DNA of 52,758 bases, from the NCBI GenBank assembly GCA_964653195.1, contig CAZZCX010000005.1, positions 17,829 through 70,586 of the forward strand, written 5' to 3'. Each line of letters opens with the position of its first letter. Position 1 is the stretch's first letter. The stretch is from an uncultured Gammaproteobacteria bacterium (GTDB lineage: Bacteria; Patescibacteriota; Microgenomatia; Levybacterales; UBA12049). The notes beneath the pieces were generated by a model. It ran no database searches. It had not been told where the DNA came from and saw nothing but the letters and a program-made list of their open reading frames with translations. Positions 6,560 through 23,861 of the stretch are shown here, piece after piece. The position numbers and the translations under genes were made by a program.

Positions 6560-7024
6560 ATGAAAATTAATCAAAAAATGCTATTATATATATCCCTGAT
6601 ACTCTCACTGGTAGGTACCCTGATGAGTTTATACTTCAGTGAAATTTTGCATTTTCCACCTTGTATTCTTTGCTGGTATCAAAGAATCGCAATGTATCCT
6701 TTGATTCCTATTCTTGCAATAGGAATTTATCTTAAGGATAAAAAGTTACCCTTTTATGTTCTACCTTTGAGCGTATCTGGCTTATTTATCGCAATTTATC
6801 ATAATTTACTTTATTACAAGATTCTTCCTGAAAGCGCAACACCTTGCCTGCTAGGAGTATCATGCACCACCAAATATATTGAATGGTTCGGGTTTATAAC
6901 AATCCCATTATTGTCACTTATTGCCTTTTTGATTATTACTGTATGTATGATAGGATATGGTAGAAGTTTAAAAATCAAAGATAAAATCTCAAAAATAAAA
7001 GTTAAAAAATATAAGAAGAGATAA
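6560..7024 (+). CDS. Disulfide bond formation protein, DsbB/BdbC family
   Basis: Four TM segments, CxxC motif PPCILCWYQRIAMYP and a second Cys pair (TPCLLGVSCT). Start taken at ATG 6560; the track uses TTG 6551. Confidence 0.8.
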   Translation: MKINQKMLLYISLILSLVGTLMSLYFSEILHFPPCILCWYQRIAMYPLIPILAIGIYLKDKKLPFYVLPLSVSGLFIAIYHNLLYYKILPESATPCLLGVSCTTKYIEWFGFITIPLLSLIAFLIITVCMIGYGRSLKIKDKISKIKVKKYKKR

Positions 7025-7031
7025 TATTATT

Positions 7032-7080
7032 AACTTATAACTTATAACTTATAACTTATAACTTATAACTTATAACTTAT
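7032..7080. repeat. Heptamer microsatellite (AACTTAT)x7
   Basis: Seven perfect tandem copies between the DsbB-like stop (7024) and the DsbA-like ATG (7091). Confidence 0.95.
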
Positions 7081-7090
7081 CGTTATTTAT

Positions 7091-7747
7091 ATGACTACAG
7101 AAACAAAAATATTAGCAGCAATAGGATTGACGACCGTAATAATTATGGCTGCTGGTATATTTTTCCTTAGTAAGCCTGCATCTACTGATTTATCTACTGC
7201 CAGACAGGTAAATCAAAGTATTTTAGTTAAGCCAGATAGCTCACAGTCTGGACCGCTTGACGCCAAAGTAACTCTTGTAGAATTTGGTGATTTTCAGTGT
7301 CCAGCGTGTGCTCAAACAGCATCGACGATAAAAACTCTTAAAGAAGAATTTAAGGGAAAAGTTAATTTCGTATTCAGACACTATCCGCTTCCACAACATA
7401 AAAATGCCATATTAGCAGCTATGGCCTCTGAAGCAGCAGGTGAACAAAGTAAATTCTGGGAGATGCATGATGTGATTTATGCAAATCAGACAGAATGGTC
7501 AGAATCGGAAAAAGCAATAGATTTTTTCGTAAAGTATGCTAAAAATTTATCTTTAGATACTGAAAAGTTTAAAAAAGCATTGACAGATGAAAAGTTCAAA
7601 CCAAAAATCTTAAGAGATGAAGCTGACGGTGGAGCAGCACAAATACGTTATACTCCTACATTGTTTATTAATGAAAAGATAATTGAAGGTTCTTCAAGCT
7701 ATGATATCTTAAAAAGCGGAATTGAGACGGAATTGAATAAAAATTGA
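7091..7747 (+). CDS. DsbA-family thiol:disulfide oxidoreductase, membrane anchored
   Basis: N-terminal TM segment and thioredoxin-fold active site FGDFQCPACAQ. Confidence 0.85.
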   Translation: MTTETKILAAIGLTTVIIMAAGIFFLSKPASTDLSTARQVNQSILVKPDSSQSGPLDAKVTLVEFGDFQCPACAQTASTIKTLKEEFKGKVNFVFRHYPLPQHKNAILAAMASEAAGEQSKFWEMHDVIYANQTEWSESEKAIDFFVKYAKNLSLDTEKFKKALTDEKFKPKILRDEADGGAAQIRYTPTLFINEKIIEGSSSYDILKSGIETELNKN

Positions 7748-15517: not shown

Positions 15518-15910
15518 CTACTGAACTGGTGGGAGGTTAAGGTGTTTCTCGATTCGTTTTATTCTTTCATTATGTAGTTCATATCCTCCCTCAATAAGCT
15601 CAGTAAGTGCTTCTATCGTTTCTTGTTGAGAAATTTCAATTCTTTGCTCAAGACTTCTATGTACTTTATCTACTTTACTATTTATCGTTTCAACTTTTAA
15701 TTCTAGAGTTTTTTGTCTATCTTCTACATTACCAAGTCTATCTTCTACATTACCAAGTCTATCTTCTACATTACCAAGTCTATCTTCTACATTACCCAAG
15801 CGACTTTTTACCTCGCCCAAGTCTTGTTTGATTGGTTTAAGTTTTTGATCAAGTTTTTCATCAATCATTTCACCAATTTGTTGTAGTAGTTGTTTGTTAT
15901 CCATGATCAT
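15518..15910 (-). CDS. Coiled-coil protein with (LGNVEDR)x4 tandem repeat, hypothetical
   Basis: A 21-nt unit gtctatcttctacattaccaa occurs four times (15715-15798 on the + strand). The stop is 4 nt upstream of the msrB start. Confidence 0.7.
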   Translation of the reverse strand: MIMDNKQLLQQIGEMIDEKLDQKLKPIKQDLGEVKSRLGNVEDRLGNVEDRLGNVEDRLGNVEDRQKTLELKVETINSKVDKVHRSLEQRIEISQQETIEALTELIEGGYELHNERIKRIEKHLNLPPVQ

Positions 15911-16065: not shown

Positions 16066-16698
16066 ATGGGAAAAGAAAAAGAGAAATCAGGAGGAGAACA
16101 GGATAAATTTAATATTTTGGCAGCTGCGAGAGATTTTGTGAATTCACTTCCAGACTATGAAGGCGATATTATTGAGCAGGCTGAAGCTATAGCTGCGAGA
16201 GTAGAGTTAAGGGATTTAATGGATAGAATGGGAGATAAGTTTGCAGAATATCTGAAGCAATATCCCGATCTTATAAAGGGGACAGCTTCTGTTTTTGCAT
16301 TGCCTTATTTAGATGCGCTTGATACCTTGGATGAAGAATTTGAGGTAAGAATGACAGAAGCAGAAGGTGAGGATCCGGATAGATTAAGGGATATTAAAAG
16401 AGAAAAGCAGTTAAGATACAATGACACAGCTTTAGAGGCATTAGGTACAGGTGTTGCATTGCTACGGGCAGGTAATCAATGGTCAAGGTTGCCTGGTGGT
16501 GAGCAGCTTACAAAACCGAGTCCTTTTGAAATAAGCACCGTTTTTATACATGTAGTTTCAGAGCGCTTAGGTGATCAGCAGATGGCAGCTCCTATCGGTT
16601 GGGATTTGTTGGTAAACGGTATGTTTGGGGTTACAGGGGTAAGCGTAGATCAAAGCATCAGAGATACCAGAGCTTATCTAAAAGGTTCTGATAAATAA
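16066..16698 (+). CDS. Acidic cytosolic orphan protein (210 aa)
   Basis: Clean ORF with TATAAT and AAGG upstream. No TM segment, no signal peptide, no recognisable motif. Confidence 0.6.
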   Translation: MGKEKEKSGGEQDKFNILAAARDFVNSLPDYEGDIIEQAEAIAARVELRDLMDRMGDKFAEYLKQYPDLIKGTASVFALPYLDALDTLDEEFEVRMTEAEGEDPDRLRDIKREKQLRYNDTALEALGTGVALLRAGNQWSRLPGGEQLTKPSPFEISTVFIHVVSERLGDQQMAAPIGWDLLVNGMFGVTGVSVDQSIRDTRAYLKGSDK

Positions 16699-16913
16699 AT
16701 ATCAATTCATAAGAGGATAGCCTTCAGATGTTTAAAAAAGCATGGGTAAGGTATGCTTTAGAGATTTGTCTCCCAAAGATTACTCTTTAGGAGACTCCTC
16801 ACCCACACTTTCCTAAACATCTAATTTTAATAATTCCTATTTGTACTTTCTATCGAGAAAGTACCAAAGCTTGAGAGCTAGTGAGAGTCGACCGGTTTTG
16901 TTTCGTTCTCTCC

Positions 16914-16979
16914 TCGGGGAATTGTCCACCCCTTTCCTTCACTCTCCGCCTTGGGCGGATCGAAAGGGATTTCCCCTGA
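16914..16979. repeat. C-family 66-nt conserved core, copy C1
   Basis: TCGGGGAATTGTCCACCCCTTTCCTTCACTCTCCGCCTTGGGCGGATCGAAAGGGATTTCCCCTGA. About 88% identical to 17524-17589, with nested stems. Confidence 0.8.
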
Positions 16980-17074
16980 GTCGTTCACGTCACAAAACTA
17001 TTTCGGTCTTTGTCTCAACGCTCGCATTTTAGCTTCGTTCAAAGCTCACAATAATTTAAATTGTTAATTACTTT

Positions 17075-17122
17075 TATTGTTCGAACAAAGCGAGAACTAC
17101 TTCTTACTTCATTTGAAGAATA
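17075..17122 (-). repeat. A-family element, copy A4 (reverse orientation, shortened)
   Basis: TATTGTTCGAACAAAGCGAGAACTACTTCTTACTTCATTTGAAGAATA is the reverse complement of the A consensus. Confidence 0.7.
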
Positions 17123-17135
17123 AATTTGTAAGGGT

Positions 17136-17160
17136 GCGGGCTGGTTTTTGACCAGCCCGC
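17136..17160. terminator. Perfect 10-bp GC-rich hairpin (terminator-like)
   Basis: gcgggctggt-ttttg-accagcccgc, followed by tatttaatt on the + strand. It lies 3' of the minus-strand 38-aa ORF. Confidence 0.45.
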
Positions 17161-17214
17161 TATTTAATTGTAGGTAAGTTTTACCATTGTCGGGCGCATT
17201 TGCCCGACTTTGGC

Positions 17215-17331
17215 TTATTTACCTTTCGGCCTTCTGGAGTTCCAGAAGGCCAGAGCTGCTGCTGTAAAAAGCAGCCCGAATCCAAGCAAAGTCAACCCGT
17301 TGCACATAAAATATTCTGGTGCCGGCATCAT
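17215..17331 (-). CDS. 38-aa hydrophobic peptide (single TM plus basic tail), hypothetical
   Basis: Minus strand: AGGAGtgaaATGATG... encodes MMPAPEYFMCNGLTLLGFGLLFTAAALAFWNSRRPKGK*. SD AGGAG is 4 nt upstream. Below the 60-aa cutoff of the ORF track. Confidence 0.35.
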   Translation of the reverse strand: MMPAPEYFMCNGLTLLGFGLLFTAAALAFWNSRRPKGK

Positions 17332-17523
17332 TTCACTCCTGTCAAATATTCTCCAAAATTGGAGGGGAGGATAGAGACGAGTTTCGTCTGTATCTTCCTC
17401 CCAATTTGTGAGTTGACTGATTTATTAAATTGTTAAGTTGCTAATGTATTTGTTCTTTTGTGTGTACAAAAGAACCAAAAAACTTGCGCGCTTGAAGTCA
17501 GGCTATTTTACTCAGTTCGCTAG

Positions 17524-17589
17524 TCGGGGGATTGTCCGCCCCCTTCCTTCACTCACCACCCTGGGCGGTTCGAAAGGGATTCCCCCTGA
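17524..17589. repeat. C-family 66-nt conserved core, copy C2
   Basis: TCGGGGGATTGTCCGCCCCCTTCCTTCACTCACCACCCTGGGCGGTTCGAAAGGGATTCCCCCTGA. Confidence 0.8.
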
Positions 17590-17920
17590 CAGCTCACTTC
17601 GTAAAATTTAACGCCTTTTATTCACAGCGCTAAATTGATTTAATAAAATGTTAATTTGCTAAGAAATTTGTAGTCACAATTCAGAAGTTAAAAAGAGCTT
17701 TAACTGCTCAATCGTAACTACGGGCGCTTATGTGGTAAGCGCCCGAGTGTTGAAAGCGCAATTGCTTTCAAACTTGGGACGCTTTAAGTATAAGCGCCCG
17801 TCATCCGAAATCAGCTGAGAATTCACCATTTCAGCGCAAAAGCTTTGTGGTAAAAACTCTACCTCTTCGGAAGCCTCTTCTTAAGGTGAGAGAATACCTT
17901 TTTTAGTCTGTTTTCTTTTT

Positions 17921-17976
17921 GTCACCCTGAATTTATTTCAGGGTCTCCTGAGATGCTGAAACAAGTTCAGCATGAC
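17921..17976. repeat. P-family double-hairpin palindromic element, copy P2
   Basis: GTCACCCTGAATTTATTTCAGGGTC-tcctga-GATGCTGAAACAAGTTCAGCATGAC. Confidence 0.85.
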
Positions 17977-18212
17977 AGGTTCGAAAACGAACCGTTTCCT
18001 GTGAGTCACCATTAGACTCCTTGGTATCCAGCTAAGCTGGACAGGAATTTCGTTCCGATTGCTCGGAACTCTATTCAGCCTTATTCAAGCTGAATAGGCG
18101 GGGGAGAGACCCGCCGGATCCGGACTAAGAACATCCAGGTATCCGACGGGCTCCCGCCCGGCTAACCTCCGGTCAAACCCTTATGGGCGGACCAGAGGCC
18201 AATAGTAGAAGG

Positions 18213-19250
18213 TTACTTCCAGTCGACCGGCCGCAGATCGGCCGGCTTGGCGGATTGTTCCACCATCCGAATTTCCTCGGCAGGGGGGTCCCACTGGACC
18301 CACCCGGACACCTCGCAGCGAACGCCGGAAGTGTCCTGGTACCACATTCTGATGTGGTAATCGGGTATCGCGAGCAGCTCGATAGGGTTGCTGTCCCAGA
18401 TCTCGCTGCCGGTATCCGGCCAGGGGTAAACACCGGTCAGGCTGTATGTTTTGGCGACCGGCAAGTAGTGATACTGGTCAGCCGCACGGCTGACCGCCCA
18501 ATCCACGTCGCGGCTGGCCGTTAGCGACAGAGGCACGCCGGGCCCCCAGATCCCGAAATCGTACTCCGCACCCGGCCAAGGCTGAAAGTCCAGCGTGGCG
18601 TTTTGCCCGGCCATGGAGGCGCTGAGGGTCTCGCGCTCGCACACCGCGGGGGGCGGGGGCGGCAGGGGCTGGCCGATCGCCAACGGAAGATAAGCTTTAA
18701 ACTCGACGGGCTGGCCGGGGCACTCGTAATCAGCCCAGAGGCCGATGGAATCTTCCGTACGGAAGGTCAAGATACCCTCTTCGGGCACCTCGAGAACACC
18801 GTAGGAAACCATCCCTTGAGGCACGGCGTGGAGCAACTGCCCGTTTAAGTAGAAGCCGCTCATGCGTTCATCGACGTCGTCGTCGATGATAGTGTACCCC
18901 ACTGTGCAGCCGGCTTTATCAAAGACGCTGATCGTCCACTCGTCGTCGTTTATGTGAACCGGGCGAGTGGTTCCTTCCTCCACCGCCCATACGCGCTCGT
19001 TCTTCTTCGCTTGGTACTCCGGGCCTTCCCGAAGCACCATATCGAGTGGCCTCGCCTTCACGACGAAGTCGCCGGACTCATTATTGAACGTCCCCGGGCC
19101 CTCGCCCAGAAACGTAACTTCGGGCATTTCCGGCACTGAGCTTGCGCCAGCGCCGAAGACGAAGTCGACACTCAGCCTGCATACGAGCAGACCGAGCAGG
19201 ACGGCGATGGTGATCCATAACGCCTTCCGGTTAATCTCTGTGTTACTCAC
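18213..19250 (-). CDS. GC-rich (about 60%) membrane-anchored extracytoplasmic orphan protein, compositionally foreign
   Basis: Longest frame in the GC-rich core, with G/C-dominated third codon positions. SD AAGGAG (complement of 19259-19264) lies 8 nt upstream of GTG (19250). The N-terminus (M)SNTEINRKALWITIAVLLGLLVC is a signal anchor, and a PLPPPPPA linker separates two Trp/Asp-rich domains. The track ORF extends to TTG 19412. Confidence 0.6.
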   Translation of the reverse strand: MSNTEINRKALWITIAVLLGLLVCRLSVDFVFGAGASSVPEMPEVTFLGEGPGTFNNESGDFVVKARPLDMVLREGPEYQAKKNERVWAVEEGTTRPVHINDDEWTISVFDKAGCTVGYTIIDDDVDERMSGFYLNGQLLHAVPQGMVSYGVLEVPEEGILTFRTEDSIGLWADYECPGQPVEFKAYLPLAIGQPLPPPPPAVCERETLSASMAGQNATLDFQPWPGAEYDFGIWGPGVPLSLTASRDVDWAVSRAADQYHYLPVAKTYSLTGVYPWPDTGSEIWDSNPIELLAIPDYHIRMWYQDTSGVRCEVSGWVQWDPPAEEIRMVEQSAKPADLRPVDWK

Positions 19251-19916
19251 TTTCGTGTCTCCTTGTGCCCGGTTTTGCCGGGCGTAGTCGTGTTTGCCCG
19301 CCAAGTGCAGAAAGCGCGGCGGGCGCTCGTTAAGAAACCAATAAAGGTTTAGTGCCACTGTGAGGTGGCTCAGTACGACAATAAGCACGTATAAAACGCG
19401 CTCACCTTCCAATTTTGACGTAAACCCGTGTATTCAGGGGAGTACGTATTCACCGGAAGCCTTTCAAATACAAATTTTCTTTATTCTTGAATCTTACATC
19501 TTGAATCTTGATTCTTTTGTACTCATAAGGCTCCCGGCAAAGTACCGGAAGTTCGATTTAGGAGAATCAATGCTTGCCCCACTTCGTCCCGATCTAATCG
19601 GGACTGCGAGGGGTAAATAACCTTCTATTATTATTAAAGAGCAAATTTGCGTAGAGCTAAGAGCTTAGGGCATAGAGCACTAAGAATAAAACAATACGAA
19701 TTCCTTCACCGATCAGTTCGCATTACTGCGGAACCTAGAACCAGTTTGAAGCTAAATAGCCTCAGACTGTCCCGCCTGCAACGCATGCTTGCATTGCGGG
19801 CAGGTGGCGTCAGGAAGAGAAGAGGAGAGTGCGATTCATCTTAATTCGTGAATCTTAAATCTTAAATCTATGTTAAGATCTCCTCTTTCTCTTCCGTACA
19901 CCAAAATGCATCAATT

Positions 19917-19987
19917 TATTGTTCGATCCCGATCAGATCGGGTGAGAACTAATTAACTTCTCACCGCTTAAGGCGGTTCGAAGAATA
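19917..19987 (-). repeat. A-family element, copy A5 (reverse orientation)
   Basis: TATTGTTCGA-tcccgatcagatcggg-TGAGAACTAattaaCTTCTCAccgcttaaggcggTTCGAAGAATA. Confidence 0.75.
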
Positions 19988-20009
19988 TTAACTTTAAAAT
20001 GTGCTTCTT

Positions 20010-20080
20010 ACCCGCCTAATCTTACTTTTCGCCTTACCTACTATTCGTAGCGTGGCTCAAAGAGCGATTGAGCGGCGGGT
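20010..20080 (+). repeat. B-family structured element, copy B2
   Basis: ACCCGCCTAAtcttacttttcgccttacCTACTATTCGTAgcgtggctCAAAGAGCGaTTGAgCGGCGGGT. Confidence 0.7.
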
Positions 20081-20123
20081 TATGCATTTCTAAGCCTCGC
20101 TTTTTGGCTCGGCAAGAATTGCA

Positions 20124-20153
20124 TAAAAAAACCCGCACTTTAAAGGTGCGGGT
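20124..20153 (-). terminator. Intrinsic terminator (minus strand)
   Basis: Hairpin acccgcac-tttaaag-gtgcgggt (20131-20153). On the minus strand it is followed by a T7 run (complement of the A7 at 20124-20130). Confidence 0.6.
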
Positions 20154-20300
20154 TGAAAATTCAATCCGAATCCAGGATAGCCTGGTCTGCCTCTAAAGCT
20201 TGTGGAGTATACTATAAGTCTAGTAATTTGTCAAGTAGGGAAGGAGAGAATATGGATTTTAGTAAATGGCATATGGTAAATAGATAATAGACATATAGCT

Positions 20301-20328
20301 TAGGGCATAGGGCATAGGGCATAGGGCG
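20301..20328. repeat. Heptamer microsatellite (TAGGGCA)x3 plus TAGGGCG
   Basis: Tandem copies at 20301, 20308, 20315 and 20322. AGCTTAGGGCATAG also occurs once at about 19663. Confidence 0.9.
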
Positions 20329-20633
20329 TATGGTAGCAAGAAGCAGGTAGTATGTAGTAGGCAGTAGGTAGCAGTAATAAACAGTATGCAAAGAGGGATA
20401 ATAAGTAGTTATTATAAATTCCTATAGGATAATTATAGTTGCAAGGTGCAATAGGTGGGAGTTATGCTTTACCATTGAAGCTTCGAAGCTGATTTACCCC
20501 GGGGGTAGGTTAGCTTCGAACACCGGTAATACTTAAATTCCAATTTAAATTTACTGACCCCTAATCTCTGTTTCCTCGCCGAAGCTTAAGCGAAGGTGGG
20601 TTCCCGGGTCACTGACCCCAGAACCTTGATTTT

Positions 20634-22403
20634 TCATCCGAAGGTGAAGGCGTAGACTTCCATATTGTCATCTAGAAACTCCAGTTTTAGTATGTGCTGG
20701 CCTGCGATAGGCAAATTAATTAGCTTATAAAGCGTATCTTTTGTGACTGTGACTGTACCGTTTTTATTATCCTCTCCGAAATATTGGAGCTTTTCGTCTA
20801 TATACACTTTTACTTGGGATTCCGTTCCATCAGTTTTAGGTTTCATGACTAAGTAAACCTCTTTCGCTTTGAAATTAAGATACAGCTTAGATTCACTCAT
20901 TGGTGCTGCATATTTTTCCGCAATTAGCCACTTTCCTTCATAAGCTAGTTCTGAAGAAGAAATAGTTCTGGGGCGTAAATATGATGTGAGCTGATCTTTT
21001 ATTACTCCTTCAGGGGAAACGAATTTATCAATTCTCCAGTATCCGAGATATTTTTCAGGTGTACTGCCATAATTTTGGTATGTTGGATTATTGATGTCGA
21101 CTGCTGTAATTTTTGAGCCTGCTTCAGTTAATAATTCCTGGATCATTTTTTCAGTCTCATCATACGCACCTTCACCGAAATGGACATATCGGATAAAGCC
21201 GTCTATATCTATGAGATATTTGGCCGGCCAGTAATGGTTGTCATAAGCAAGCCAGGTAGCGAAATCGTTGTCCTGCATGATTGGATATTTGAGGCCGAAA
21301 TCACTAGCAGCCTCGCGGAGATTATCCAAATCCTTCTCAAATTCAAATTCAGGGGAATGGACTCCTATAATTGTAAGACCGTTATCTTTGTACTTTTCAT
21401 GCCAAGTGCGTAAATAAGGAAATGTACGCTGGCAATTGATACAGGAATACGTCCAGAAATCGATGAGAACAACTTTCCCCAATAAAGATTGGAGGACTTG
21501 CCCTTCCGTAGCCTCTGGCGAAGGAGGGTTCAACCATGATCCACCCGGTATTAATTCAGGAGCTTTTTTACCTTTCGGCTGAAGTTCAAAAAGCGGTTTA
21601 CCCATATCAGTAGTATCAGTTTTACGGCCATTTAACGTATTTAATGCGTCTTTTATCACGCCTATATCTTCAAAGTCAGTCAGATTGCTACCGTAATTGG
21701 GGAACGATGTCAGGATATACGTCTGGAATTTTCGATCAATATTGAAATATATCGCAGCTGCTGTGAGGATCATAATAAGCCCGAAGGCTTTTTGTATCAG
21801 TTGAGTGTTACTTAAAAGCCAGGGGATTTTTCTAAGCAGTTTCTGTCCGCCAAGCATGATCGCAAACATAGGTATCGCAGTACCCAGAGAATAGGAGAGT
21901 GTGATAATTAATGCGCTGAAATTTACCGTGCCTGTGATGGCCAAAGTTATAACTGATGCTAGAATTGGACCTACGCATGGAGTCCAAAGTAGACCAAGAG
22001 ATAAGCCGACAAGAAGGCCTGAGATAAATTTACTGTGCATATTTGCTTGTCCGGATTTTGAAGTGTTTACGGGTACGAAGCGTGACAGTTTGGAAAATAA
22101 CCTTTCAAGAAGAACTTGAAACTGTGGGATAAGAAGGGATATACCGAATGTGGCTATAACTAAAATTGAGAAAATTCTCAAAGAATCGGCAGGTATCCCG
22201 CTTATTTTGACTATGGTAGATAAAAAGAGTGTAAAGAAAGTGAAGCTTGTGATAAATCCGGTTATAACACCAAGTGGTCGAGATCTGCTTGCATCCTTAC
22301 CGCCGATAGTAGAAGAGAGTATGATTGGAAGTACAGGGAGAATGCAGGGGGAGAGGATAGTGACTATTCCTGCGATGAATGAGAAAAGAATTAGTAATAA
22401 CAT
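20634..22403 (-). CDS. DipZ-like fusion: CcdA/DsbD transmembrane thiol-disulfide transporter + TlpA/redoxin-like thioredoxin domain + C-terminal beta-rich domain
   Basis: TM-domain cysteines (ILSPCILPV, LWTPCVGPI), thioredoxin motif DFWTYSCINCQRT, and a C-terminal extension of about 150 aa. Confidence 0.8.
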   Translation of the reverse strand: MLLLILFSFIAGIVTILSPCILPVLPIILSSTIGGKDASRSRPLGVITGFITSFTFFTLFLSTIVKISGIPADSLRIFSILVIATFGISLLIPQFQVLLERLFSKLSRFVPVNTSKSGQANMHSKFISGLLVGLSLGLLWTPCVGPILASVITLAITGTVNFSALIITLSYSLGTAIPMFAIMLGGQKLLRKIPWLLSNTQLIQKAFGLIMILTAAAIYFNIDRKFQTYILTSFPNYGSNLTDFEDIGVIKDALNTLNGRKTDTTDMGKPLFELQPKGKKAPELIPGGSWLNPPSPEATEGQVLQSLLGKVVLIDFWTYSCINCQRTFPYLRTWHEKYKDNGLTIIGVHSPEFEFEKDLDNLREAASDFGLKYPIMQDNDFATWLAYDNHYWPAKYLIDIDGFIRYVHFGEGAYDETEKMIQELLTEAGSKITAVDINNPTYQNYGSTPEKYLGYWRIDKFVSPEGVIKDQLTSYLRPRTISSSELAYEGKWLIAEKYAAPMSESKLYLNFKAKEVYLVMKPKTDGTESQVKVYIDEKLQYFGEDNKNGTVTVTKDTLYKLINLPIAGQHILKLEFLDDNMEVYAFTFG

Positions 22404-23038: not shown

Positions 23039-23082
23039 ATTTTATATATATTAACTTATTTTAATAAATTTGTCAGGGAAAT

Positions 23083-23861
23083 CTAACCCCCGGGGTATAT
23101 TGACTTCGTACATCGGAACATATAATCTGAGAGTAAAATATATAATGCCACGCAGGAAAACAATCTTAGCTAATGGAGAATATTACCATGTTTTTAATAG
23201 AGGTGTAGCTAGTATACCTATATTTAAAAACCAATCCTCTTATAAAAGATTTATAAACTTAATTGATTATCTACAGTATGGAAATACACCTACTAGTTTT
23301 TCGAATTTTTTAAAACATTCGATTGCTGATAGGCAGGAGATTGTGACCAAATTGCAAATAGAGAATAGACAGCTCATAGAGATTATATCTTTTTGCCTTA
23401 TGCCTAATCATTATCATTTTGTTTTGTTGCAGAAAGTTGATAAGGGAATATCTAAATTTATTGCCAATCTTCAAAATAGTTATGGGAAATATTTTAACCT
23501 GAGATTCAAAAGAACTGGACCATTGGTCCAGCCATCATTTAAAGCTGTTAGGATTGAAACTAATGAACAATTATTGCATGTAACCAGATATATCCATCTA
23601 AATCCTATTACAAGTTTTTTGGTAAATGAAATTGAATTTTTAAGTTATGAATGGAGCTCATTGCCTGAATATATTACTAATATAAAGCGTTATTCTTTTA
23701 TAAATACCGATATTGTATTAGATATCCTTGATAGTGAACAGTATAAGGAATTTGTCTTTGATCAAATTAATTATCAGCAGGAATTACATAAGATTAGGCA
23801 TTTAATGCTTGAATAAAAGTTTGCGTACTGATGTTAGAAGCTATTTTACGCCGGGGGTTAG
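23083..23861 (+). mobile_element. RAYT unit: Y1 (HUH) transposase gene flanked by inverted GC-rich REP-like repeats
   Basis: Left TCTAACCCCCGG (23082-23093) and right CCGGGGGTTAGA (23851-23862) are exact 12-bp inverted repeats bracketing the CDS. Confidence 0.65.
23145..23816 (+). CDS. REP-associated tyrosine transposase (IS200-like Y1/HUH transposase family)
   Basis: YHVFNRGV...IF, HUH motif LMPNHYHFVL, and catalytic Tyr context TRYIHLNPI. Start trimmed to ATG 23145. Confidence 0.8.
   Translation: MPRRKTILANGEYYHVFNRGVASIPIFKNQSSYKRFINLIDYLQYGNTPTSFSNFLKHSIADRQEIVTKLQIENRQLIEIISFCLMPNHYHFVLLQKVDKGISKFIANLQNSYGKYFNLRFKRTGPLVQPSFKAVRIETNEQLLHVTRYIHLNPITSFLVNEIEFLSYEWSSLPEYITNIKRYSFINTDIVLDILDSEQYKEFVFDQINYQQELHKIRHLMLE

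What the first reader, a model, noticed from the sequence alone, without database searches (positions are those of the whole stretch)
18213..19250. About 60%-GC gene for a membrane-anchored two-domain orphan protein inside a 35%-GC genome
- **Coding evidence.** The minus-strand frame has strongly G/C-biased third positions (e.g. GAC CAG TAT CAC TAC TTG CCG GTC GCC ... TGG GAC CCC CCT GCC GAG), which indicates genuine coding DNA from a high-GC donor.
- **Start site.** A canonical AAGGAG-N8-GTG start at 19250 is preceded by hairpins (gcccgg-caaaa-ccgggc).
- **Protein.** It has a signal-anchor N-terminus, a PLPPPPPA linker, and two Trp/Asp/Tyr-rich beta-like domains with no motif I recognise.
- **Context.** It is flanked on both sides by repeat families native to the low-GC host (A4 and P2 on the 3' side, A5 and B2 on the 5' side), which argues for integration rather than mis-assembly.

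Such an un-ameliorated transfer into a reduced genome is unusual.
Basis: partly seen in the sequence, partly recalled or inferred. Interest (0 to 1): 0.7.

Follow-up and report, generated by a model that had tools for sequence, protein, structure and literature searches.

The report
GC-rich, strain-variable secreted protein gene
A real gene for a secreted two-domain protein, far richer in G+C than its genome, occupies one chromosomal spot where closely related strains carry very different, anciently diverged and equally GC-rich versions.

Summary
ORF 18213..19250(-) has 61% GC and GC3 0.77, in a window whose other genes average 35% GC and GC3 0.26 (z about 12). It is a real gene, not an orphan and not an assembly artefact.

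- **Protein.** The N-terminal ~140-residue beta-sandwich domain has 163 representative relatives. No Pfam, NCBIfam, PHROG or PDB match was found. Relatives occur mainly in Chloroflexota MAGs, often fused to adhesin-type domains and alternative C-terminal anchors.
- **Same junctions elsewhere.** Independent assemblies of near-identical hosts (95-99% nt in the flanks) show the same GC-rich gene between the same low-GC neighbours.
- **Different alleles.** One strain has the same N-domain with an unrelated C-domain. Others have versions only 27-45% identical in protein.
- **Old alleles.** Silent sites between alleles are at or near saturation, yet five of the six alleles keep 59-63% GC and GC-rich amino-acid use; the sixth, in an unrelated low-GC flank, has 53%.
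- **Shared junctions.** Four or five of the six alleles share a hairpin next to the ribosome-binding site and a CCTTCTA motif after the stop codon.

Best reading: a hypervariable secreted or surface binding protein cassette of Chloroflexota-like ancestry, exchanged by recombination. It is not a single recent transfer. Why the high GC persists is unexplained. Host taxonomy could not be determined.

The parts
18213..19250 (-). CDS of 345 aa (GTG start, TAA stop) for a secreted or anchored two-domain protein. GC 0.61, GC3 0.77.
   Evidence: Homologues. The start is supported by L003, L011 and L016.
19143..19223 (-). N-terminal hydrophobic segment (residues 10-36) with an AGA|SS-like cleavage site. 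It is a signal peptide or a signal anchor.
   Evidence: Kyte-Doolittle values above 1.6 for residues 6-36. AlphaFold2 helix 3-31. Equivalent segments are present in all homologues.
18717..19133 (-). Conserved N-domain (residues ~40-178), a beta-sandwich. Motifs: P..(T)FLGEG..T, K, ERVW, G, IxDDDxDxR, QGMVSYG, EDSIGL. A conserved Cys pair lies at C115/C177.
   Evidence: Alignments. 163 representatives at E<=1e-3. Domain-only model pLDDT 93.6. No Pfam, NCBIfam or PDB hit.
18645..18695 (-). AYLPLAIGQPLPPPPPA: an internal copy of the family's C-terminal 'YLPLV' tag, followed by a proline linker. This is the recombination junction for C-domain swapping.
   Evidence: tag at the C-terminus of about 27 of the 157 proteins held; the window/L001 breakpoint lies right after CAGCCCCTGCCG, and a 34-nt island is shared with L003.
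18216..18644 (-). C-domain C1 (residues 203-345), all-beta, with a Cys pair at C204/C312. It was found only here and in the L003 allele (47% identity). In sister strain L001 it is replaced by an unrelated domain.
19251..19335 (-). GC-rich leader. Hairpins at 19324-19296 and 19283-19267 precede an unpaired AAGGAG (19264-19259). The SD-proximal hairpin is kept in four alleles, with a compensatory change in L003.
18100..18212 (-). GC-rich trailer. CCTTCTAC immediately follows the stop codon (conserved after the stop in five alleles), then a run of hairpins. It is the 3' edge of the variable block.
18208..19574 (.). The block with no nucleotide similarity to the corresponding block of L016, a genome otherwise 95-97% identical over about 18 kb. 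This is the strain-variable cassette.
   Evidence: The same pattern is seen against L003 and partly against L001.
19534..19603 (-). Host-type REP-like hairpin block conserved in window, L001 and L003. It marks the left edge of the variable block.
17544..18060 (-). Downstream host non-coding block. It is 71-100% identical to L003 in 60-nt windows (98-100% in three of them), although the two ORFs are only about 50-55% identical in nucleotides.
16699..20633 (.). ORF-poor, hairpin- and repeat-rich intergenic stretch (42-47% GC outside the gene) between the 210-aa gene and the DsbD-thioredoxin gene. The cassette sits inside it.

Best explanation
**What it is.** The ORF is a real gene for an exported two-domain beta-sandwich protein. 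It has a signal peptide or anchor, a conserved N-domain, a 'YLPL'-proline junction and a variable C-domain. Each domain carries one conserved cysteine pair.

**Family.** The N-domain belongs to an undescribed family of extracellular domains. Its other members sit mostly in Chloroflexota. There they are joined to PT-rich linkers, adhesin-type repeats and alternative C-terminal anchors. By inference, the protein most likely binds something at or beyond the cell surface, as a recognition or adhesion module. That function is not shown.

**Genomic behaviour.** In this low-GC lineage the gene, with its own GC-rich leader and trailer, behaves as a strain-variable cassette at one fixed site, between the DsbD-thioredoxin gene and a 210-aa gene.
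- Closely related strains carry alleles that differ as much as distant homologues.
- Whole alleles or single domains are exchanged by recombination at short conserved junctions: the leader, the proline linker and CCTTCTA after the stop codon.

**Composition.** The GC-rich make-up points to ancestry in, or continuing supply from, a GC-rich gene pool of Chloroflexota type. It does not point to one recent transfer.

**Shown:** the gene is real; it has export features; the family exists; the locus is hypervariable; the breakpoints lie where stated; the alleles are old; they are GC-rich.

**Inferred:** a binding or recognition function; diversifying or frequency-dependent selection; a GC-rich source.
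For: **Gene, family and fold**
- Nine relatives were found with the full protein, 8 with the N-domain profile, and 163 representatives by exhaustive HMM search.
- The conserved motifs are listed.
- The AlphaFold2 models have pLDDT 76 (full length) and 93.6 (N-domain), and are all-beta.
- In larger relatives the domain is fused to Big_9, cadherin-like, NHL, DUF7507/DUF11 and SdrD_B domains. Relatives end in IPxTGG+TM or YLPLVxx tags.
- The only GTDB species-representative genomes with relatives are four Chloroflexota MAGs.

**Not a chimera**
- The same junctions appear in L001, L003 and L016-L019, which come from other samples.

**Hypervariable locus**
- L016 is 95-97% identical to the window over about 18 kb, but window 19574..18208 has no blastn match in it.
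- L003's flanks reach 98-100% identity while the ORF is about 50% identical in nucleotides and 45% in protein.
- L001 has the same N-part (4 differences in 588 nt) but an unrelated C-domain. The neighbouring DsbD gene has dS 0.225.

**Old alleles that are still GC-rich**
- Identity at four-fold sites is 0.27-0.47 for all allele pairs except window/L001, against 0.29-0.39 expected at saturation.
- Allele GC is 0.59-0.63 in five alleles and 0.53 in the sixth (L020). GC3 measured in five alleles is 0.57-0.82. Flanks are 0.36-0.39 where long enough to measure (0.44 for L003's short non-coding flanks).
- The amino-acid make-up is also GC-rich. GARP is 0.25-0.29 against 0.20 in host proteins. FYMINK is 0.17-0.22 against 0.33.

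**Shared junctions**
- Leader and trailer are shared among alleles.
Against: - No function was tested. Foldseek found no significant structural neighbour (best E 0.018 in PDB, 0.01 in BFVD). 'Binding module' therefore rests on domain company and weak CBM-like similarity.
- No member of the allele group was found on a GC-rich contig, so the proposed GC-rich source is unobserved.
- Chloroflexota homologues lack the leader and trailer.
- Monophyly of the allele group has weak bootstrap support (46/100 for five alleles, 19/100 with P0057).
- Selection was not measured, because dN/dS is meaningless at saturation.
- Host taxonomy is unknown.
Confidence: 0.6

Rival explanations
1. One reading: one recent, un-ameliorated horizontal transfer of an orphan gene from a GC-rich donor into this genome.
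For: The composition is extreme (z about 12 for GC3). The family is otherwise found in Chloroflexota genomes of 49-67% GC.
Against: The same site holds at least four to six deeply diverged, GC-rich alleles in near-identical hosts. The gene has relatives. No donor copy was found among 15 billion proteins. The nearest relatives of the window allele are the other alleles, in low-GC flanks wherever the flanks could be judged.
Confidence: 0.12
2. The alleles diversified inside the low-GC lineage, and a locus-specific process keeps them GC-rich. Candidates are GC-biased gene conversion at a recombination hot spot, or selection on GC-rich codons or mRNA structure.
For: Every context of the allele group whose flanks could be judged is low-GC. 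The alleles share the leader, the trailer and the domain architecture. Recombination at the locus is evident. Two more distant family members are also richer in GC than their flanks: L024 at 0.58 against 0.46, and L005 at 0.55 against 0.47.
Against: To my knowledge, no local GC excess of this size has been attributed to gene conversion in bacteria. A phage-borne family member has fully adopted its 32% GC context, so the family has no intrinsic need for GC. No substitution-direction data could be obtained.
Confidence: 0.2
3. The cassette is a small non-autonomous mobile element moved by a site-specific or hairpin-recognising enzyme, such as the nearby Y1 (IS200/RAYT-like) transposase or an integron-like system.
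For: A Y1_Tnp gene lies at 23070-23816. Hairpins flank the ORF. Divergence begins exactly at the stop codon next to the conserved CCTTCTA. An 18-nt inverted repeat (16 of 18 matching) brackets the unit at 18201-18218 and 19615-19632.
Against: The cassette was seen at only one chromosomal site. No second copy or fragment exists in the window. The inverted repeat is absent in L003, and about 0.2 such pairs are expected by chance in this region (my own estimate). No integrase-sized ORF lies nearby. The sequence after the stop lacks attC core sites by eye. One breakpoint lies inside the ORF, which fits homologous exchange.
Confidence: 0.08
4. It is a phage-derived gene, either a moron or a receptor-binding protein remnant.
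For: Family members occur on a 124-kb IMG/VR viral contig (L004/L015) and in a resolvase/DUF5131/SprT context (L005/L006). Modular C-terminal swapping is typical of phage receptor-binding proteins.
Against: No phage genes are near it in the window, L001 or L016. There are no hits in 50,697 phage records, in PHROGs, or significantly in BFVD. The protein has a signal peptide.
Confidence: 0.05
5. It is an assembly chimera or contamination.
For: Contigs often break near the locus: L001 ends 254 nt past the gene, and L003, L011 and L020-L028 are short.
Against: The same junctions were recovered in assemblies from several different samples and sources. The breaks are what a variable, repeat-rich locus would produce.
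Confidence: 0.01

Closest known systems
Strain-variable surface recognition and adhesin loci kept diverse by recombination. Examples from my own knowledge: the polymorphic TraA receptor of Myxococcus, pilin and Opa loci, and S-layer gene variants.
   Same: An exported protein at a fixed chromosomal site. Alleles are far older than the strains that carry them. Divergence has sharp edges next to conserved flanks. Whole domains are exchanged.
   Different: Here the alleles have a base composition foreign to the genome (53-63% GC against about 35%). No silent cassettes or dedicated recombinase were found. Function and surface location are untested.
Horizontally acquired islands of atypical GC content
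   Same: A sharp compositional island with atypical codon and amino-acid usage, whose relatives lie in another phylum (Chloroflexota).
   Different: It is a single gene with no integrase or tRNA. It recurs at the same site as many old alleles. No donor copy was found.
'Choice-of-anchor' extracellular domains (an NCBIfam concept) and carbohydrate-binding-module-like beta-sandwiches
   Same: The N-domain appears with alternative C-terminal anchors (IPxTGG+TM, or a YLPLVxx end) and next to adhesin repeats. Some relatives also carry a choice_anch_E domain. There is weak similarity to CBM6/35-like folds.
   Different: The window protein matches no NCBIfam or Pfam model. Structural matches are not significant (E >= 0.018, TM <= 0.47).
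Polymorphic toxins (CDI/Rhs type) and phage receptor-binding proteins with swappable C-terminal modules
   Same: A conserved N-part, a short conserved junction motif, and unrelated C-terminal modules in sister strains.
   Different: There is no downstream immunity gene, no toxin-like domain, no phage neighbours, and the protein is small (345 aa).

Membership tests
Undescribed N-domain family (no database name) | Conserved motif set P..FLGEG..T / K / R.W / G / I.D..D.R / G.V / DS.G within a ~140-aa beta domain that follows a signal sequence | tested here: met
   The columns are invariant or nearly so in 9- and 16-sequence alignments. Profile E-value is 7.9e-53 for the window protein.
Any Pfam / NCBIfam / PHROG / PADLOC family | A profile match at or near the curated threshold | tested here: not met
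   No families matched the window protein in any of the four libraries.
Carbohydrate-binding module (CBM6/35-like jelly roll) | Significant structural superposition on a solved CBM | tested here: inconclusive
   The best PDB hit is a pectate-lyase CBM at E 0.018 and TM 0.36. CBM6 hits have E of about 0.1. The model is confident (pLDDT 93.6), so the weak match is not due to a poor model.
Sortase (LPXTG-like) substrate | A C-terminal motif followed by a hydrophobic helix and a basic tail | tested here: not met
   The window protein ends ...RPVDWK with no hydrophobic tail. Many relatives do end IPxTGG+TM+R/K.
Integron gene cassette | An attC site (R''/R' cores) after the ORF and an integron integrase nearby | tested here: not met
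   No integrase-sized ORF or tyrosine-recombinase domain is among the window ORFs scanned. By eye, the sequence after the stop has no GTTRRRY/RYYYAAC pair.
IS200/IS605- or RAYT-mobilised element | A Y1 transposase acting on subterminal hairpins, with copies at several sites | tested here: inconclusive
   A Y1_Tnp gene lies 3.8 kb away and hairpins are present. The unit was seen at one site only, with no second copy.
Diversity-generating retroelement target | A reverse transcriptase plus a template repeat matching a variable repeat | tested here: not met
   No RT domain is among the scanned ORFs. No internal or nearby repeat of the gene was found. The alleles differ over their whole length.
Polymorphic toxin (CDI/Rhs type) | A variable C-terminal toxin domain with an adjacent immunity gene | tested here: not met
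   No ORF follows the gene for about 1.5 kb. The C-domains are beta-sandwich-like and have no family hits.
Horizontally transferred gene from Chloroflexota | It nests within donor-phylum sequences in a tree, and a close donor copy exists | tested here: inconclusive
   The only GTDB species-representative genomes with relatives are Chloroflexota. Their identity to the window N-domain is 41-46%. The allele group clusters with itself rather than inside sampled Chloroflexota, and support is weak.

The most novel reading that the evidence does not exclude
A hypervariable exported-protein gene is held at about 60% GC inside a 35%-GC lineage across saturating divergence. Two processes not yet described for bacteria at this scale could do that:
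- extreme local GC-biased gene conversion at a recombination hot spot; or
- repeated capture of alleles from a GC-rich partner organism into one dedicated site. For example, a small low-GC symbiont might take surface-protein alleles from Chloroflexota hosts.
Probability: 0.25. Interest if true: 0.85.

Novelty: new variant of a known kind. Interest (0 to 1): 0.62.

Why it matters
- **A conflict with amelioration.** Base composition is normally expected to drift towards that of the resident genome. Here several old alleles at one site have kept 59-63% GC and GC-rich amino-acid use in genomes of about 35% GC; a sixth allele, in an unrelated low-GC flank, has 53%. Either there is a steady supply from a GC-rich partner, or a local force opposes the genome's mutation bias. 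Public read sets from the samples named here can test both.
- **An undescribed domain.** The work defines an extracellular domain family (163 representatives, confident predicted fold, no database entry).
- **A candidate sorting tag.** It also brings out a candidate C-terminal tag in that family.
- **An ecological lead.** If the host proves to be a small-genome symbiont, the locus would be a candidate determinant of partner recognition.

Tried and rejected
**Structured RNA in the flanks**
- Rfam found nothing at gathering score in the whole window, and only noise at E<=1 in 16600-20700. There are no tRNAs.
- The apparent covarying hairpins in the trailer are better read as different REP-like hairpin elements.

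**Defence system, phage or plasmid origin**
- No PADLOC, PHROG, phage-record or plasmid-record hits.

**More alleles or a donor**
- The leader pattern and a host-flank pattern gave 0 hits in JGI metagenome contigs.
- A search with the L001 C-domain returned nothing, not even the protein it came from, so that negative is unreliable.
- The last contig look-up, through the neighbouring 210-aa gene, gave contigs that stop before the cassette.

**Host identity**
- Not in the GTDB scan.
- The window protein is not retrievable by exact look-up.
- Sample accessions were not found in papers.
- The cyanobacterial HIP1 palindrome is absent.

**Other checks**
- Silent cassettes or pseudogene fragments of the family in the window: none.
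- Literature on the YLPLV-type tag: only unrelated frog peptides.
- Sigma-70-like promoter for the gene: none on the minus strand.
- A first bootstrap run timed out. It was redone with a faster distance method.

Full report
**1. The observation**

The window is 35.5% GC. ORF 18213..19250 on the minus strand is 61.2% GC, with GC at codon positions 1/2/3 of 0.62/0.45/0.77. Twenty-eight other ORFs of the window average 35.3 +/- 3.4% GC and GC3 0.262 +/- 0.041. The ORF is therefore 7.6 and 12.3 standard deviations away. The GC-rich island runs from about 18100 to 19330, a little beyond the ORF on both sides.

AAGGAG lies at 19264-19259, followed by eight bases and GTG at 19250. It is preceded by the hairpin GCCCGG-CAAAA-CCGGGC at 19283-19267. 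The mechanical ORF extends to a TTG at 19412 (399 aa). That extension is not conserved in homologous loci, which start at the position equivalent to 19250. Other frames hold only short ORFs, as expected in GC-rich DNA.

**2. It is a real gene with relatives**

- A search with the 345-aa product found nine proteins.
- A profile of the N-terminal domain found eight, seven of them new.
- An exhaustive HMM search of 1.84 billion representatives found 163 at E<=1e-3, of which 42 were at E<=1e-30.

The shared part is a ~140-residue domain (residues ~40-178) with a fixed set of residues: P..FLGEG..T, K, ERVW, G, IxDDDxDxR, QGMVSYG, EDSIGL. It matches nothing in Pfam, NCBIfam, PHROGs, PADLOC or PDB sequences.

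AlphaFold2 gives these results:
- The full-length model has an N-terminal helix (residues 3-31) and two all-beta domains, with a disordered stretch (183-196) at the junction just before the proline run. Its pLDDT is 76.
- The N-domain alone gives a confident model, with pLDDT 93.6 and pTM 0.85.
- Foldseek finds no significant neighbour in PDB or BFVD. The best E-values are 0.018 and 0.01, with TM of 0.47 or less. The top hits are carbohydrate-binding modules and GOLD domains.

Several features fit an exported protein:
- There is a hydrophobic N-terminus with an AGA|SS site.
- There is one conserved cysteine pair per domain.
- Larger relatives fuse the domain to Big_9, cadherin-like, NHL, DUF7507/DUF11 and SdrD_B domains.
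- Relatives end in two kinds of C-terminal tag: IPxTGG plus a hydrophobic helix and basic tail, or ...EP...[YFW]LP[LIV][IV]xx at the very end.

In the window protein the second tag is internal (AYLPLAIGQ, residues 186-194). It is followed by a proline run and a second domain. That second domain was found only in one other allele.

**3. Who else has the family**

The only GTDB species-representative genomes encoding relatives are four Chloroflexota MAGs: Promineifilaceae, Promineifilum, a Chloroflexia MAG and an Anaerolineae MAG. Their GC is 49-67% and their identity to the window domain is 41-46%. Their genes lack the window's leader and trailer.

One member sits on a 124-kb viral contig of 32% GC and has that contig's composition. 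Another lies among resolvase, DUF5131 and SprT genes. There are no hits in isolated phages or plasmids.

**4. The surprise: a hypervariable site**

| Locus | Relation of host flanks to the window | Allele at the site |
|---|---|---|
| L001 (another sample) | 96.4% identical over 9.6 kb | Same 5' half (4 differences in 588 nt; the neighbouring DsbD gene has dS 0.225). An unrelated C-domain begins right after CAGCCCCTGCCG in the linker. Similarity resumes after the stop codon. |
| L003 | 98-100% identical in stretches | Full-length allele, 45% identical in protein, about 50-55% in nucleotides |
| L016-L018 (three sources, 27-58 kb contigs) | Same gene order on both sides where the contig extends (L018 ends just past the 210-aa gene); L016 is 95-97% identical over about 18 kb | No nucleotide similarity across window 19574..18208. 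A 360-aa allele (P0034), 27% identical overall. |
| L011 (P0004) | Flanks too short to judge | Further allele |
| L020-L023 (P0057) | Low-GC flanks unrelated to the window | Further allele |

All six alleles share the same architecture. P0004, P0034 and P0057 share a third type of C-domain.

Four alleles keep a hairpin just upstream of a free Shine-Dalgarno sequence, with a compensatory C-G to U-A change in L003. Five have CCTTCTA directly after the stop codon. Trailer types do not follow C-domain types: L001 and L016 share a trailer but have unrelated C-domains.

The site therefore exchanges whole alleles or single domains at short conserved junctions. Frequent contig breaks at the locus fit this picture.

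**5. The alleles are old and still GC-rich**

- At four-fold degenerate sites of conserved residues, identity between alleles is 0.27-0.47 (window/L001, which share the N-part, excepted). Saturation given their composition would give 0.29-0.39.
- Five alleles have 59-63% GC and the sixth (L020) has 53%. GC3, measured in five alleles, is 0.57-0.82. Flanks long enough to measure have 36-39% GC; L003's short non-coding flanks have 44%.
- Their amino-acid make-up is also GC-type. G+A+R+P is 0.25-0.29, against 0.20 in host proteins. F+Y+M+I+N+K is 0.17-0.22, against 0.33.

This rules out a single recent transfer. It leaves two readings:
- repeated supply from an unsampled GC-rich pool; or
- a local process that holds GC high.

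Against the first, every allele whose flanks could be judged sits in low-GC flanks, and no GC-rich copy was found. Against the second, I know of no bacterial precedent of this size. In addition, a family member on a 32% GC viral contig has fully adopted that composition.

In a neighbour-joining tree the alleles group together, but support is weak: 46/100 for five alleles and 19/100 with P0057.

**6. Most likely working**

The following is inferred, not shown. The protein is exported. Its N-domain probably binds a ligand at a cell surface; the conserved acidic DDDxDxR cluster and the weak CBM-like fold suggest a metal-assisted glycan site. The swappable C-domain would change specificity or partners. 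Strain-to-strain replacement suggests diversifying or frequency-dependent selection, as for recognition molecules or phage receptors. The leader hairpin next to a free ribosome-binding site would fit mRNA stabilisation.

**7. What could not be done**

- Host taxonomy was not obtainable.
- Its genes are those of a cell: YchF, HtrA, CtpA, a two-component system, a Cu-ATPase and alpha-2-macroglobulin. It also has a Y1 transposase and many REP-like hairpins.
- 'Reduced genome' remains untested.

**8. Verdict**

It is not a lone fresh import. It is a multi-allelic, GC-rich cassette at a fixed site of a low-GC lineage, and it encodes a member of an undescribed extracellular domain family.

Noticed in passing
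Family proteins P0008, P0013, P0016, P0030, P0038, P0040, P0055, P0059, P0067, P0087, P0121, P0130 and others; internal copy at window 18669-18695 (-): About 27 of the 157 proteins held end 1-4 residues after a [ILV][YFW]LP[LIV][IV] motif, often preceded by (D/E)EP. Others end in IPxTGG plus a hydrophobic helix and basic tail. The first looks like an undescribed C-terminal tag; NCBIfam has no model for it in the proteins tested.
   Followed up: partly
window 20634-22403 (-): The DsbD-thioredoxin gene next to the cassette is much more diverged between window and L001 (92.4% nt, dS 0.225) than genes further away (dS 0.009-0.10). It is called as 465 aa in L001 and L016, against a 589-aa ORF here. 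The elevated diversity may be linked to the variable site.
   Followed up: partly
window 23070-23816 (+): A Y1 (IS200/RAYT-like) transposase gene is conserved in L001 and L016. The genome is full of REP-like hairpin repeats, e.g. 13399/17915/22438, 12663/14631/15000/15063/17076, and the 84-nt pair at 16896/17506.
   Followed up: partly
window 19478-19516, 19838-19869, 20301-20327, 20345-20371, 7020-7095: Short heptamer tandem arrays (TCTTGAA, ATCTTAA, TAGGGCA, AGGTAGT, CTTATAA) lie in intergenic DNA. The array upstream of the gene differs between strains.
   Followed up: no
window 18201-18218 and 19615-19632: An 18-nt inverted repeat (16 of 18 matching) brackets the gene plus leader. One arm overlaps the stop codon and CCTTCTA. 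It is present in L001 and partly in L016, but absent in L003, so it may be chance.
   Followed up: partly
window 15694-15819, inside ORF 15518-15910 (-): Five tandem 21-nt units (GTCTATCTTCTACATTACCAA) lie inside a small coiled-coil-like ORF. The number of units may vary between strains: the corresponding gene is 130 aa in L016 and 116 aa in L017.
   Followed up: no
L004 / L015 (IMG/VR contig, 124 kb, GC 0.32) and L005 / L006: Family members also occur on a large phage-like contig (HNH, D5-like primase, split ribonucleotide reductase with a LAGLIDADG gene, Thy1). Another lies in a resolvase/DUF5131/SprT gene set.
   Followed up: partly
L024 (gene GC 0.58, rest 0.46) and L005 (0.55 vs 0.47): Two more distant family members are also richer in GC than their surroundings. 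The GC excess may not be limited to the window's lineage.
   Followed up: no
The word-index protein search with the C-domain of P0002 returned no hit at all, not even P0002 itself. Negatives from that tool for short divergent queries should be read with care.
   Followed up: no
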